Below, piece after piece: positions 3,096 to 14,160 of a stretch of DNA of 64,000 nt (within the stretch, counting starts at the first letter, position 1; the number at the start of each line of letters is the position of its first letter). The translations under genes were made by a program, and so were the position numbers. The DNA comes from the human T2T-CHM13v2.0 reference genome, Homo sapiens. The notes under the pieces were generated by a model. The model saw only the letters and a program-made list of their open reading frames with translations. It was not told the origin of the DNA and ran no database searches. The stretch lies in the NCBI RefSeq assembly GCF_009914755.1, contig NC_060937.1; one strand, 5' to 3'.

Positions 3096-5317
3096 TATTT
3101 TTTATTTTTTAAAACTTTTATTTTAGGTTCAGGGCTACGTGTGAAGGTTTGTTATATAGATAAACTTGTGTCTAGGGGTTTGTTGTACAGATTATTTTGT
3201 TACCCCGCTACTAAGTCTAGTACCCAATAGTTATTTTTTCTGCTCCTCTCCCTCCTCCTACCCTCCACACTCAGGTAGGCCCACAGTGTCTGTTGTTCCC
3301 CTCTTTGTGTCTATGTGTTCTCATCATTTAGCTCCCACTTATAAGTGAGAACATAGGGTATTCAGTTTTCTGTTTCTGTATTAGTTTGCTAAGAATAATG
3401 ACCCCCAGCTTCATCCATGTTCCTGCAAAAGACATGATCTAATTCTTTTTAATGGCTGCATAGTATTCCATGGTGTATATGGCCACGTTTTCTTTATCTG
3501 GTCTATTGTTTATGGGTATTTAAGTTGATTTCATGTTTTTGCTCTTGTGAACAGTGCTGCAGTGAACATACATGTGCATGTGTCTTTATGATAGAATAAT
3601 TTATCTTCCTTTGCGTATACCCAGTAATGTCGAAAGGTATTTCTATTTTTAGCTCTTTGAAAATCACCACACTGCTTTCCACAATGGCTGAACCAATTTA
3701 CACTCCTGCCAACAGTGCATAAGTGTTCCCTTTACTCTGCAACCTCATTGGCATTTGTTATTTTTTGACTTTTTAGTAATAGCCATTCTGACTGGTGTGA
3801 AATGGTATCTCATTGTGATTTTGATTTGAATTTCTCAAATGATCAGTGATATTGAGCTTTTTGTTATATGCTTGTTGGCTGCATATGTGTTTTCTTTTGA
3901 AAGGTGTCTGTTTATGTCCTTTGCCCACTTTTTAATGGGGTTGTTTTCTTCTTGTAAATTATTTTATAGATGTGGATATTAGACCTTTGTCAGATACATA
4001 GTTTGCAAATATTTTCTCCCATTGTGTAGATTGTCTGTGTACTCTATTGAGAGTTTATTTTGCTGTACAGAAGCTCTTTAGTTTAATTAGATCCCATTTG
4101 TCAATTTTTGGTTTTGTTCCAGTTGCTTTTGGTATCTTCTTCATGAAATCTTTGCCAGTTCCCATGTCCAGAATGGTATTGTTTAGATTCTCTTCCAGGG
4201 TTTTTATAATTTTAGGTTTTACGTTTAAATTTTTAATCTATCTAGAGTTGATTTTTGCATATGGTATAAAGAAGGGGTCCAGTTTTAATCTTCTGCATAT
4301 GGCTAGCCAGTTGTCCCAGCACCACTTATTGAATAGGGAGTCCTTTCCCTATTGCTTGTTTTTGTGAGCTTTGTCAGAGATCAGATGGTTGTAGGTGTGC
4401 AGTCTTATTTCTGGGCTCTCAGTTCTGTTCCATTAGTCTATGTGTCTGTTTTTGTGCCAATATCATGCTGTTTTGGTTACTATAGCCTTGTAGTACAGTT
4501 TGAAGTCGGGTAGTGTGATGCTGCCTGCTTTGTTCTTTCTGCTTAGGATTGCCTTAGCTATTTGGGCTCTTTTTTGGTTCCATGTGAATTTTAAGATAGT
4601 TTCTTCTGGTTTTGTGAAGAATGTCATTGGTAGTTTGATAGGAATAGCATTTAATCTATAAATTGCTTTAGGCCATTTTAATGATATTGATACATGTATA
4701 GCAATCCATATCTGAAAGGCACAACTGAAATATTGTGTGGTACAGTTGGAGAGGCAGGCAAAACTTCTGGGAAAAACAGTCTGGCCATTTTATTGATATT
4801 GATTCTTCCTATTCATGTGCATGGAGTGTTTTTCCATTTGTTTGTGTCATCTCTGATTTCATTGAGCAGAGTTTTGTAATTATCATTGTAGAGATCTTTC
4901 ACCTCCCTGCTCAGCTGTATTCCTAGGTATTTTATTCTTTTCTGTGGCAATTGTGAATGGAATTGCGTTCCTGATTTGGCTCCTGGCTTGGCTGTTGTTG
5001 GTGTGTAGGAATGCTAATAATTTTTGTACATTGATTTTGTATCCTGAAACTTTGCTGAAGTCGTTTATCACTTTAAGGGGCTCTTGGGATGAGACTATGA
5101 AGGTTTTTAGATGTAGAATCATGTCATCTGCAAACAGGGATACTTTGACTCCCTCTCTTCCTATTTGGATGCCTTTATTTCTTTCTCTTGCTTGATTGAT
5201 CGGTCCAGGGCTTCCAATACTATGTTGAATAGAAGTGAGAGACGGCATCTTTTCTTGTGCCAGTTTTCAAGGGAAATGCTTCCAGCTTTTGTCCATTTAG
5301 TATACTGCTGGCTGTGG
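3096..5317 (-). mobile_element. 5'-truncated older L1PA (about L1PA13-16-like) nested in the L1PB
   Basis: T-rich tail at 3096 and L1PA 3' UTR on the minus strand. RT-domain remnant [14 protein letters not shown]...[13 protein letters not shown] (ORF 4883-5248). TSD AGAATGACTACTATT (3081-3095) / AGAATGGCCATTATT (5318-5332). Confidence 0.9.
4690..4780 (-). other. Non-L1 insert that is an inverted copy of 6368-6458
   Basis: Hand alignment to the reverse complement of 6368-6458 gives about 14 differences in 92 nt, including a 43-nt core with one mismatch. Confidence 0.9.
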
Positions 5318-6011
5318 AGAATGGCCATTATTAAAAAGTCAAAAAACAATAAATGTTGGTATGGATGTGGGGAAAAGGGAATGCTTATACTCTGTTGATG
5401 GGAATGTAAATTAGTACAACCTCTATGGAAAACCATATGGAGATTTCTCAAAGAACTAAAAGGAAGTCTACCATTCGATCCAGCAATCCCACTACTGGGT
5501 ATCTACCGAAGGAAAATAAGTGATTATATAAAAAAAGACACCTTGCATGCATAAGTTTATCACGGCACAATTCAAAATTGCAAAGAAGTTGAACTAACCT
5601 AAGTCCCTATCAACCAATGAGCGGATAAAGAAAATGTGGTATGTACACAACATGGAATACTACCCAGCCATAAAAAAGAACAAAATAATGCCTTTTGCAG
5701 CAACTTGGATGGAGCTAGAGGCCATTATTCTAAGTGAGGTAACTCAGGAATGGAAAACCAAATATATGTTCTCACTTGTTAGTGGGAACTAAACTGTGGG
5801 TAAACAAAGGCATACGGAGGGGTATAATGGACATTGGAGACTCACAAGGGGGGTTGTTGGGAGGAGAGGTGAGTGATAAAAAAACTACATATTGGGTACA
5901 ATGTACACTTCTCAGGTGACAGGTGCATGAAAATCTCAGACCACTATACAATTCATCTAGGTACCAACCAAAATCACTTGTACCCCAAAAGCTATTGAAA
6001 TAAAAAAATAC

Positions 6012-6090
6012 TAAAACCCACTGACTTGTATACTTTAAATGGGTAAATTGTATGACATGTGAATTATGTCTTAATAAAGCTGTCATTAAA
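6012..6090 (+). mobile_element. Old L1M 3'-end fragment
   Basis: ACTTGTATACTTTAAATGGGTAAATTGTATGACATGTGAATTATGTCTTAATAAAGCTG is a typical L1MB/MC 3' terminus. Confidence 0.65.
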
Positions 6091-6140
6091 AACTTGCTCT
6101 GAGTTTGACTTGGTGTTCATATTTTCTAGGGGCAGACTTA

Positions 6141-6347
6141 TTTTTTTTGTTTGATTTTGTCTTGCTGTGTCACCTAGGCTGGAGTGCAATGGTATGATCG
6201 TGGCTCACTGCAGCCTCAAACTCTTGAGCTCAAGGAATCCTCCCACTTCAGCCTCCCAAGTAGCCAGAACTACAGGTACACACCACCACTCCTGGCTAAT
6301 TTTTTAAATATTTTGTAGAGGCGGGGGTCTCACTATGCTGCCCAGGA
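6141..6347 (-). mobile_element. Truncated AluJ-type element
   Basis: GGCTGGAGTGCAATGG...CACTGCAGCCTCAAACTCTTGAGCTCAAG...CAGCCTCCCAAGTAGC, right arm plus part of the left arm. Confidence 0.85.
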
Positions 6348-13346: not shown

Positions 13347-13684
13347 CAGGGGTCACCAGCCCTCAGGCCGTGGACTGGTACTAGTCTCTGGCGGGTTAGG
13401 AATTGGGCCGCACAGCAGGAGGTGAGCAGCAGTCCAGCAAGTATCACCACCTGAGCTCCGCCTCCTGTCAGATCAGTGGAGGCATTAGATTCTCATAGGA
13501 GTGCAAGCAGACCCTACTGTGAATTGCACATAGTCTAGGTTTCATGCTCCTTATGAGAATCTAATGCCTTGTGATCTGAGGTGGAATAGTTTCATCCTGA
13601 AACCATCCCCACCCCCACACTGTCTGTGGGAAAATCACCTTCCACAAAACCGGTCCCTGGTGCCAAAAAGGTTGTGGACTGCTG
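13347..13684 (+). mobile_element. MER1B (hAT-Charlie non-autonomous DNA transposon)
   Basis: CAGGGGTCACCAGCCC...GGTGCCAAAAAGGTTGTGGACTGCTG, 338 bp. Perfect 8-bp TSD CTCTACAT at 13339-13346 and 13685-13692. Confidence 0.93.
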
Positions 13685-13846
13685 CTCTACATAATGGGAA
13701 ATATTGTTGCTAATGACTGGAATTTTACCTCTTTCATGATCAACTACCATTCTTTTGGTCCTAACTTGAAAAATCCCCAGGAAGAGATTCATCAGCTCCA
13801 GTTTGGCCAGGTGCCTGCAGACAACCTATGGAATGGTCATATAATA

Positions 13847-13920
13847 TTATGTTGAACTATATGAAATTGCCATTACATATTCTATTGCTAAAAAGTGTCA
13901 ATTTCTTAATTTAATCATAA
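13847..13920. mobile_element. MADE2-like mariner MITE, degenerate
   Basis: TTATGTTGAACTATATGAAATTGCC left TIR and decayed right TIR GTCAATTTCTTAATTTAATCATAA, flanked by TA on both sides. Confidence 0.7.
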
Positions 13921-13929
13921 TAGCCAAAA

Positions 13930-14160
13930 TTAATAACAATAGTTGAATGTTTACTATGTGCCAAGCATTGTTTTAAGCGCTTTACATATGTTTACTCATA
14001 TGCATTTACAACAACCTTAAAAGTTAGGTGCTGTAGTCATCTTCATTTTATATTGGCGAAAACTAAGGTGCAGAGCGTGTAGCTAACTTGTCCATCATCA
14101 TATAGTAGTAAGTGTTAGAGCCAGAATTCTAACCCAGGCAGTCTGGTTTCAGAGTCTACT
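13930..14160 (-). mobile_element. MIR, near full length; donor of the 11336-11453 insert
   Basis: TTTACTATGTGCCAAGCATTG...AAAACTAAGGTGCAGAG...GAGCCAGAATTCTAACCCAGGCAGTCTGG. Confidence 0.85.

What the first reader, a model, noticed from the sequence alone, without database searches (positions are those of the whole stretch)
4690..14095. Two independent short inverted copy-back insertions within 10 kb, with the same geometry
Seen: both events are about 90-120 nt, inverted relative to the donor, have the donor to the right at 1.6 and 2.5 kb, and sit inside older repeats. Their divergences differ (about 15% and 11%), suggesting separate times. Inference: this may be a locus-specific hotspot or a general, under-counted germline class of short-range inverted templated insertions. 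Candidate mechanisms are fold-back or strand invasion after kb-scale resection, replication template switching with a fixed fork direction, or copying of nascent RNA. Each pair also forms an 85-89% identical inverted repeat that could pair as a long-range stem in a transcript across the region. This is the best candidate for an undescribed process in the window, but two cases could be coincidence.
Basis: inference. Interest (0 to 1): 0.7.

Follow-up and report, generated by a model that had tools for sequence, protein, structure and literature searches.

The report
Two short inverted copies of nearby DNA
Two stretches of about 85 and 134 bases were each copied, in reverse orientation, from unique DNA 1.6 and 2.5 kb away; this kind of repair-linked local duplication was already catalogued in 2009, and two lying close together fits chance.

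Summary
Both inverted pairs are real. Pair A is 4690-4775 / 6371-6458 and pair B is 11329-11462 / 13968-14102. Neither is a pair of transposon copies: each sequence has only its local partner as a close match in the whole genome.

In both pairs the left arm is the copy.
- A interrupts an L1 and is flanked by a 27-nt duplication of the L1 target.
- B holds only the middle of an old SINE copy and sits in an AT-rich microsatellite.

The two divergences are equal (11.6% and 11.3%), not 15% against 11%.

This matches the "repair-mediated duplications" of Pace et al. 2009: 824 human cases, inserts of 50 bp or more, a unique donor under 5 kb away, microhomology, sometimes target duplications. Neither event is in their table.

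A random 240-kb control gave one to three further cases. One of them is a listed human-specific case that is also inverted with its donor to the right.

In 764 of the 824 listed cases I found no clustering (1 pair within 10 kb against 2.1 expected) and no donor-side bias (388 against 376).

Verdict: two new members of a known class. A hotspot is not supported.

The parts
4692..4776 (+). Acceptor A: an 85-nt insert that is the reverse complement of 6371-6458. With the 2-nt overlap AT at 4690-4691, the homology runs 4690-4775.
   Evidence: 76 matches, 10 mismatches, 2 gap columns; 11 of 11 related L1 copies lack this stretch.
4673..4691 (+). Left copy of the duplicated L1 target (19 nt kept). 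It lacks 8 nt that the other L1 copies and the right copy have.
   Evidence: alignment; sequence.
4777..4803 (+). Right copy of the duplicated L1 target (27 nt, CAGTCTGG...TGAT).
   Evidence: this 27-nt stretch occurs once in each of 11 related L1 copies and twice here.
6371..6458 (+). Donor A: unique, non-repeat DNA just right of an Alu-like fragment (the Alu name is my own recognition).
   Evidence: a genome search with 6340-6500 finds only itself and the acceptor.
3220..5310 (-). Antisense L1 that hosts acceptor A (limits approximate; the L1 name is my own recognition).
   Evidence: 2948 first-look candidates, and the 39 scored non-self matches are 88-91% identical to 4783-5000..
11329..11462 (+). 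Acceptor B: a 134-nt inverted copy of the middle of the SINE copy at 13943-14159.
   Evidence: 118 matches, 15 mismatches, 3 gap columns; the local partner scores 156 bits, every other genome hit 63.5 bits or less.
13968..14102 (+). Donor B: the inner part of an old dispersed SINE-like copy. I recognise it as MIR, but no tool named it.
   Evidence: family members elsewhere (67-75% identity for the long matches) align to window 13943-14159. That is beyond the arm on both sides.
11060..11700 (.). AT-rich compound microsatellite around acceptor B. It has many internal inverted repeats, including a 43-nt arm pair 10 nt apart at 11173-11268.
   Evidence: I3-I8; dinucleotide bins; GC 0.25 at 11000-11499.

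Best explanation
These are two separate, old germline 'repair-mediated duplications'.

Inferred mechanism:
- A break or staggered pair of nicks arose in the L1 (event A) and in the AT-rich microsatellite (event B).
- A free 3' end paired by a few bases with unique DNA 1.6 or 2.5 kb away on the same chromosome.
- It was extended for about 85 or 134 nt, was released, and re-annealed to the other side of the break.
- This is synthesis-dependent strand annealing with an ectopic nearby template.

In event A, ends staggered by 27 nt would leave the 27-nt target duplication. That the two events lie 6.6 kb apart, with the same orientation and donor side, is coincidence.

Shown: the copies, their uniqueness, the direction from donor to acceptor, the junction anatomy of A, and equal divergence.
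Inferred: the break, the strand invasion, and the independence of the two events.
For: Uniqueness:
- Each arm has only its local partner as a close relative in the genome.

Direction:
- A interrupts an L1 that is continuous in 11 of 11 relatives.
- B contains only the middle of a repeat copy whose family homology runs past the donor arm on both sides.

Junctions of A:
- a 27-nt target duplication
- a 2-nt overlap (AT) at the left junction
- patchy similarity between the donor's continuation and the L1 target at the right junction
- no added poly(A)

Fit to the published class:
- inserts of 50 bp or more, mean 162, median 147, up to 619 bp
- a donor found at one other place only, and under 5 kb away
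- microhomology of 2-9 nt
- target duplications of 4-21 nt in 6 of 39 inspected cases
- no poly(A) in 39 of 39 proximal cases
- Our spacings fall at the 64th and 87th percentiles of 764 listed cases. Our divergences lie in the top 19% overall, but within one SD of the 'all primates' class mean of 9.5%.

Chance co-occurrence:
- The catalogue has 1 acceptor pair within 10 kb against 2.1 expected, and 15 within 64 kb against 13.6 (p = 0.38).
- Donor side is 388 upstream against 376 downstream (p = 0.69).
- Of 14 neighbouring pairs 64 kb or less apart, 6 share a side and 8 do not.
- A random 240 kb gave one clear case of similar size, one shorter case and one ambiguous case.
- Even at 0.62 events per Mb, about 37 windows of 64 kb in the genome would hold two or more. 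At 8 per Mb the number is about 4,600.
Against: - A 27-nt target duplication is longer than the 4-21 nt that Pace et al. report. It needs widely staggered ends, which a replication template switch explains at least as simply.
- The left target copy lacks 8 nt, which the model does not explain.
- At the catalogue's own density (0.27-0.62 per Mb), two events in one 64-kb window has probability 0.0001-0.0008. 'Chance' therefore leans on a much higher true density, estimated from only 1-3 control events, and on the many windows that were read.
- The equal divergences are also what a single joint event would give.
- The junctions of B lie in low-complexity DNA and cannot be read.
Confidence: 0.5

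Rival explanations
1. Same class of event, different engine: a replication-fork template switch (FoSTeS/MMBIR-like). A stalled nascent strand leaves its template and copies the opposite strand 1.6-2.5 kb away, which gives the inverted orientation. It then returns 27 nt behind its point of departure, which gives the flanking duplication in A. The two events are still independent.
For: - An inverted copy with a flanking duplication of the departure site follows directly from leaving and re-entering behind (junctions).
- Junction overlaps are short and imperfect, as in MMBIR-type insertions. Osia et al. 2021 (PMC8421209; abstract and passages) report 2-12 bp microhomology or 'microhomeology'.
- B sits in AT-rich, hairpin-prone DNA. 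A section heading in Walker et al. 2021 (PMC7954356; abstract and outline only) reports enrichment of AT-rich sequence around template-switch sites.
Against: - Described short-range template switches use templates far nearer: within 100 bp in MMBSearch.
- Single-stranded template 1.6-2.5 kb from a eukaryotic fork is unusual. This point is inference.
- Pace et al. find both donor sides equally often, which any model with random fork direction also gives. The data therefore do not discriminate.
Confidence: 0.3
2. The two insertions are linked. Either one error-prone replication or repair tract made two template excursions in the same direction, or the locus is a recurrent hotspot seeded by the fragile AT-rich palindromic microsatellite.
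For: - Same orientation and same donor side, 6.6 kb apart, with indistinguishable divergence (11.6% and 11.3%).
- Two events in 64 kb is unlikely at the catalogue density.
- The acceptor B region is full of inverted repeats.
- The catalogue does hold one triple within 31 kb, all with donors downstream (chr17:67.37-67.40 Mb hg18).
Against: - No excess of close pairs in 764 listed cases at any scale from 10 to 500 kb.
- Side concordance among close neighbours is 6 of 14.
- 56% of random catalogue pairs differ by no more than 4.4 points of divergence (my estimate of the sampling error of the difference). Equal divergence therefore says little.
- Acceptor A is in ordinary L1 sequence, not in the microsatellite.
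- The other 54 kb of the window hold no further case.
- The shared geometry has a prior of about 1 in 4 if orientation is also even, which is untested.
Confidence: 0.1
3. RNA-templated insertion: a piece of the intronic transcript of the host lncRNA was reverse-transcribed at a nick or break, by L1 machinery or during repair.
For: - Both pairs lie in an annotated intron of LOC105370259 on the + strand (hub annotation).
- Event A has a target duplication.
- The insert of A ends in five A's.
Against: - Four of those five A's are templated by the donor.
- The target (...TTTGGG/CAGTAT...) is not the T-rich L1 endonuclease site. That consensus is recalled, not tested.
- In Pace et al., 0 of 39 inspected proximal duplications had poly(A) or poly(T) tracts, against 17 of 29 distant ones.
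Confidence: 0.05
4. The arms are independent copies of one transposon family in opposite orientation, or old copies homogenised by gene conversion.
For: Donor B is part of a dispersed SINE-like repeat. Most inverted pairs in any window are of this kind: 103 of 108 pairs tested.
Against: - Pair A has no other copy in the genome.
- The arms of pair B are 90% identical, while other family members match the acceptor arm only over 35-68 nt and the donor copy, over long stretches, at only 67-75%.
- The flanks of the B acceptor are microsatellite, not the rest of the repeat.
Confidence: 0.02

Closest known systems
Repair-mediated duplications (RDs), proximal class: Pace, Sen, Batzer & Feschotte 2009, PLoS Genet (PMC2671141)
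   Same: - an insert of 50 bp or more interrupting a repeat
- a donor found at only one other place, on the same chromosome and under 5 kb away
- lengths and spacings in range
- microhomology and, in some cases, a target duplication
- no poly(A)
- ages back to early primates
   Different: - Neither event is in their Table S1. All 33 proximal chr13 rows were checked.
- The target duplication of A (27 nt) exceeds their stated 4-21 nt.
- B lies in a microsatellite rather than clearly inside a transposon.
- The word 'inverted' does not occur in their main text, and donor-acceptor orientation is mentioned for one duplicated exon only.
'Doublets', short paired duplications: Thomas et al. 2004, PNAS
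   Same: Short private duplicate pairs concentrated about 1 kb apart, proposed to arise by copy-and-paste during break repair. This is as described by Pace et al. and as I recall the abstract.
   Different: - That study used exact matches of 25-100 bp, so only young events. Ours are 11% diverged.
- I recall a same-strand preference there, whereas both of ours are inverted.
- The paper itself is not held, so this rests on recall and on Pace et al.
MMBIR-type templated insertions (MMB-TI: Osia et al. 2021, PMC8421209) and short-range template-switch mutations (Walker et al. 2021, PMC7954356)
   Same: An inverted copy of a nearby template with short or imperfect junction homology. AT-rich surroundings for B.
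   Different: Those events use templates within about 100 bp and are mostly shorter. Here the templates are 1.6-2.5 kb away.
L1-mediated retroposition of cellular RNA (target-primed reverse transcription)
   Same: A short insert flanked by a target duplication (event A).
   Different: No poly(A) tail, no endonuclease-type target site, and the donor is adjacent rather than distant.

Membership tests
Proximal repair-mediated duplication (Pace et al. 2009) | An insert of at least 50 bp interrupts an annotated transposon, with the two flanks adjacent in the transposon's own coordinates (within +/-30 bp) | tested here: met
   A: 11 of 11 related L1 copies are continuous across the site, and the flanks overlap by 19-27 nt. 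B: tested but inconclusive. The insert lies in a microsatellite beside an old repeat, and continuity across it could not be checked because loci could not be cut.
Proximal repair-mediated duplication (Pace et al. 2009) | The inserted sequence occurs at only one other place in the genome | tested here: met
   A: 2 matches in all. B: the local partner scores 156 bits, and the 7 other matches are short repeat-core pieces of 55-63.5 bits. The tool's counts are lower bounds.
Proximal repair-mediated duplication (Pace et al. 2009) | Donor on the same chromosome, more than 50 bp and less than 5 kb from the acceptor | tested here: met
   Spacers are about 1.6 kb and 2.5 kb.
Proximal repair-mediated duplication (Pace et al. 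2009) | No poly(A) or poly(T) tract of 5 bp or more added at an end of the insert | tested here: inconclusive
   A ends in five A's, of which four are present in the donor. B has none, but its ends are blurred by the microsatellite.
Proximal repair-mediated duplication (Pace et al. 2009) | Breakpoints carry microhomology, filler, a deletion or a target duplication | tested here: met
   A: 2-nt overlap, a 27-nt target duplication, and 8 nt missing from the left copy. B: similarity between donor flank and microsatellite at both ends, but not decidable.
MMBIR-type templated insertion (MMB-TI as defined for MMBSearch) | Inverted copy of a template lying within 100 bp of the insertion | tested here: not met
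   Both are inverted, but the templates are 1.6 and 2.5 kb away. Definition.
L1-mediated retroposition (TPRT) | Poly(A) tail, T-rich endonuclease target site, target duplication | tested here: not met
   A target duplication is present in A, but there is no untemplated poly(A), and the target reads ...TTTGGG/CAGTAT.... The site consensus is recalled.
Pair of independent transposon copies | Many genome copies of similar or better identity than the partner | tested here: not met

The most novel reading that the evidence does not exclude
The two insertions are not independent. One low-fidelity replication or repair tract passed through this 10 kb about 30-50 million years ago and made two inverted template excursions to its own wake. 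Alternatively, the hairpin-prone AT-rich microsatellite makes the locus a recurrent site. On this reading, short proximal templated duplications come in linked sets that the published catalogue was too sparse to show. My small sample (1-3 in 240 kb) hints that it misses most cases.
Probability: 0.1. Interest if true: 0.45.

Novelty: new member of a known kind. Interest (0 to 1): 0.17.

Why it matters
For this locus it matters little. These are two fixed, old, intronic duplications with no sign of function.

The wider point is modest.
- The only genome-wide catalogue of this mutation class lacks both events. It also lacks a shorter one in my control, whose aligned length was 54 nt and whose new sequence was about 40 nt.
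- A random 240 kb suggested a density at least several-fold above the published 0.27 per Mb genome-wide (0.62 per Mb of transposon DNA).
- A complete T2T-based census with orientation recorded has, as far as my searches show, not been published. It would give a cleaner picture of how often break repair copies nearby DNA in the germline.
- Each such event also creates a long inverted repeat in a transcript. Predicted RNA duplexes here are -123 and -174 kcal/mol. These could be substrates for RNA editing or affect splicing, which is untested here.

Tried and rejected
- Transposon-pair explanation: rejected by genome copy number.
- My first idea that the antisense L1 and the sense L1 piece at 5310-6010 are one twin-primed element: rejected. 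They overlap in L1 coordinates at only 70% identity, so they are two elements.
- Retroposition (TPRT) for A: rejected for lack of a poly(A) tail or a target motif.
- A target duplication for B: not decidable in low-complexity flanks.
The density estimate therefore rests on 1-3 events.
- Finding more copies of the SINE family in my 350-kb pool with BLAST gave 1 weak hit. The genome search replaced it.
- Loci for the old repeat right of acceptor B could not be cut.
- Thomas et al. 2004 is not held.
The figure with breakpoint alignments (supplement 1), which might show orientations, was not read either.
- Two literature searches for follow-ups on orientation or clustering found none. 'Repair-mediated duplication' returned 9 papers, and judging from the search listing alone none reanalyses the class. 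One search found nothing relevant.
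Full report
**What is there**

The repeat finder reports two inverted pairs at the stated places: 4690-4767 / 6381-6458 (78 nt, 88%) and 11329-11451 / 13980-14102 (123 nt, 88%). Gapped local alignment extends both.
- Pair A becomes 4690-4775 / 6371-6458: 76 matches, 10 mismatches, 2 gap columns.
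- Pair B becomes 11329-11462 / 13968-14102: 118 matches, 15 mismatches, 3 gap columns.

A self-comparison of the whole 64-kb window found 12 local pairs of 50 nt or more lying under 6 kb apart. Only these two and a 55-nt near-tandem pair at exactly 80.0% reach 80% identity. The other nine are 65-76% identical, as expected for copies of one transposon family.

**They are not transposon pairs**

A search of the window's own genome (3.1 Gb) gave these results.
- With 6340-6500 it returned two places only, the query and the left arm of pair A.
- With the left arm of pair B it returned the local partner at 90% over 116 nt (156 bits). The seven other matches were of 35-68 nt and 55-63.5 bits, all in the conserved core of a dispersed repeat.

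The tool warns that its counts are lower bounds. Even so, a young family able to give 88-90% identity would have produced many strong hits.

**Which arm is the copy**

Pair A:
- I aligned 11 other L1 copies over the site. They are the best genome matches to 4783-5000, at 89-91% identity.
- All 11 read straight through and carry one 27-nt stretch once.
- The window has that stretch twice, at 4673-4691 and at 4777-4803, with 85 nt (4692-4776) between. The left copy has 19 nt left, with 8 nt missing.
- So the left arm is an insertion into an L1 with a duplication of the target. The right arm lies in DNA that is unique in the genome.

Pair B:
- Dispersed family members elsewhere (67-75% identical for the long matches) align to window 13943-14159. 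That is 25 nt and 57 nt beyond the donor arm.
- The left arm holds only the middle of that element. Its flanks are microsatellite.
- So again the right arm is the donor.
- I recognise the element as MIR and the host of A as L1. No tool supplied these names.

**Junctions**

Event A:
- The last two bases of the L1 before the insert (AT) are also the bases before the copied stretch in the donor.
- At the other end, the donor's continuation resembles the start of the duplicated L1 target in a patchy way.
- The insert ends in five A's, four of which are in the donor, so there is no added tail.
- The target does not look like an L1 endonuclease site. That consensus is recalled.

Event B: both ends run into TG- or CA-type microsatellite that resembles the donor's own flanks. 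Neither overlap nor target duplication can be called. The surrounding 640 nt are rich in internal inverted repeats.

**Age**

The divergences are 11.6% and 11.3%, and do not differ (Fisher p = 1.0).

The host L1 is 88-91% identical to its nearest relatives. Event A is therefore about as old as the L1 insertion. With neutral rates of about 1.2 to 2.2e-9 per year this is roughly 30-50 million years. The upper rate is the one quoted by Pace et al., the lower is recalled, and the arithmetic is mine.

**It is a described class**

[quoted passage not shown] I read the Introduction, the Results, the section on methods and comparisons, and most of Table S1. Their main results:
- 824 cases had the donor within 5 kb. 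The mean length was 162 bp, the median 147 and the maximum 619.
- 753 of the 1,136 duplicons lay under 3 kb apart, with an apparent peak near 1.2 kb.
- Of 39 proximal cases inspected, none had poly(A) or poly(T). Most had 2-9 nt microhomology with deletions or filler, and 6 had target duplications of 4-21 nt.
- They propose synthesis-dependent strand annealing on an ectopic nearby template.
- They give a density of 0.62 per Mb of transposon DNA and see no clusters.
- They state that the class shares many attributes with the 'doublets' of Thomas et al. 2004. I could not read that paper.

Both events here fit that definition. Two reservations are set out in the membership table: the tail criterion for A and the transposon context for B.

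Neither event is in Table S1. I saw every chr13 row (33 proximal), and none has a donor downstream at about 1.6 or 2.5 kb.

**Is two in 10 kb remarkable?**

- In these pieces plus the window, 129 local pairs passed the filter of 50 nt or more, 80% identity or more, and 50-5000 nt apart.
- 21 pairs longer than 400 nt (tandem or satellite) were set aside.
- Of the 108 tested, 103 had further copies in my 350-kb pool and were called family pairs.
- The five left were the two pairs under study and three others.

The three others:
- L036: 150 nt, 100% identical, inverted, 825 nt apart, inside an Alu, donor to the right. Only two copies exist in the genome. It is row 12 of Table S1, a human-specific case in a BCAS3 intron. 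My filter therefore finds the same class.
- L028: 54 nt, 89%, direct, 764 nt apart, two copies in the genome. It joins an Alu through about 12 nt of shared sequence. The newly added sequence is about 40 nt, below the catalogue's threshold.
- L025: direct, at least 132 nt of non-repeat sequence at about 94%, cut off by the end of the piece. It remains ambiguous.

That is 1-3 events in roughly 0.2 Mb of usable sequence, so about 5-15 per Mb with very wide limits. The Poisson 95% interval for two events is 0.24-7.2.

*Catalogue.* I transcribed 764 of the 824 rows and compared acceptor spacing with 5000 uniform placements per chromosome.

| Acceptor pairs within | Observed | Expected | p |
|---|---|---|---|
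| 10 kb | 1 | 2.1 | 0.88 |
| 20 kb | 3 | 4.3 | 0.80 |
| 64 kb | 15 | 13.6 | 0.38 |
| 100 kb | 26 | 21.4 | 0.18 |
| 500 kb | 113 | 106 | 0.27 |

- Donor side is 388 upstream against 376 downstream (p = 0.69).
- Of 14 neighbouring pairs no more than 64 kb apart, 6 share a donor side and 8 do not.
- The hg18 chromosome lengths were recalled and scaled by 0.92. Hand transcription may contain slips.
- Against my reading, the list does hold one pair 7.3 kb apart and one triple within 31 kb with all donors downstream.

*Expectation*.
- At 0.62 per Mb, about 37 windows of 64 kb in the genome would hold two or more events.
- At 8 per Mb, about 4,600 would, and a given window has a 9% chance.
- At the raw catalogue density the chance for one given window is only 0.0001-0.0008. 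'Coincidence' therefore depends on the many windows read and on the catalogue being incomplete, which three of the four private pairs I verified suggest.

*Shared geometry.* Given no side bias, the same donor side costs a factor of two. Orientation frequencies are not known: three of my four verified cases are inverted, and I recall a same-strand preference for doublets.

**Mechanism**

I favour break-initiated copying of a nearby template, as Pace et al. propose. For A this would start from ends staggered by 27 nt.

A fork template switch explains the inverted copy plus flanking duplication equally directly, and is the main rival. Published short-range template switches use templates within about 100 bp, not kilobases.

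Nothing here separates the two. A single linked event, RNA templating and transposon or gene-conversion origins are less likely, for the reasons given under the rivals.

**RNA stems**

The arms would pair strongly if transcribed together. Duplex energies are -123 and -174 kcal/mol, against about -30 to -36 for shuffled partners. Both pairs lie in an annotated lncRNA intron. Whether such stems form or matter cannot be tested with these tools.

**Limits**

- No primate orthologues were available, so the dating rests on divergence alone.
- The control sample is small.
- Orientation is not recorded in the published table.
- About 60 catalogue rows and the breakpoint figure were not read.

Noticed in passing
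window 3220-3789 and 5318-5899: The antisense L1 that hosts acceptor A abuts a sense-oriented L1 3' piece (about 5310-6010). The two overlap in L1 coordinates at only 70% identity. They are therefore two insertions of different subfamilies, not one twin-primed element.
   Followed up: partly
window 11173-11215 / 11226-11268, and 11519-11700: The AT-rich compound microsatellite around acceptor B contains a 43-nt inverted repeat (88% complementary, 10-nt spacer) and several longer imperfect ones. This DNA is prone to hairpins or cruciforms.
   Followed up: no
window 4670-4691: The left copy of the duplicated L1 target lacks 8 nt that lie between two GG dinucleotides in the other L1 copies. I cannot say whether this was lost during the insertion or later.
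   Followed up: partly
L036 2065-2214 / 3039-3188 (control piece on contig 17): The human-specific duplication listed by Pace et al. (Table S1 row 12, BCAS3 intron, 0% divergence) is inverted relative to its donor and replaces about 10 nt of an Alu. The published table does not record orientation.
   Followed up: yes
Pace et al. Table S1, chr17:67,366,810 / 67,387,093 / 67,397,958 (hg18): Three catalogued duplications lie within 31 kb, all with the donor downstream, with divergences of 8.7, 6.7 and 13.9%. This is the only triple at that scale among the 764 rows I transcribed. The overall pair counts still fit a random spread.
   Followed up: partly
L028 4219-4272 / 5036-5089 (control piece on contig 16): A direct 54-nt private duplicate joins an Alu 3' end through about 12 nt shared between the donor and the Alu. 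It is a small case of the same process, below the 50-bp threshold of the catalogue.
   Followed up: partly
L025 7411-7612 / 9799-10000 (control piece on contig 13, 2.4 Mb from the window): A direct local duplicate whose non-repeat part (at least 132 nt) is about 94% identical, while the adjoining Alu-like part is only about 72% identical. It is cut off by the end of the piece and remains unresolved.
   Followed up: partly
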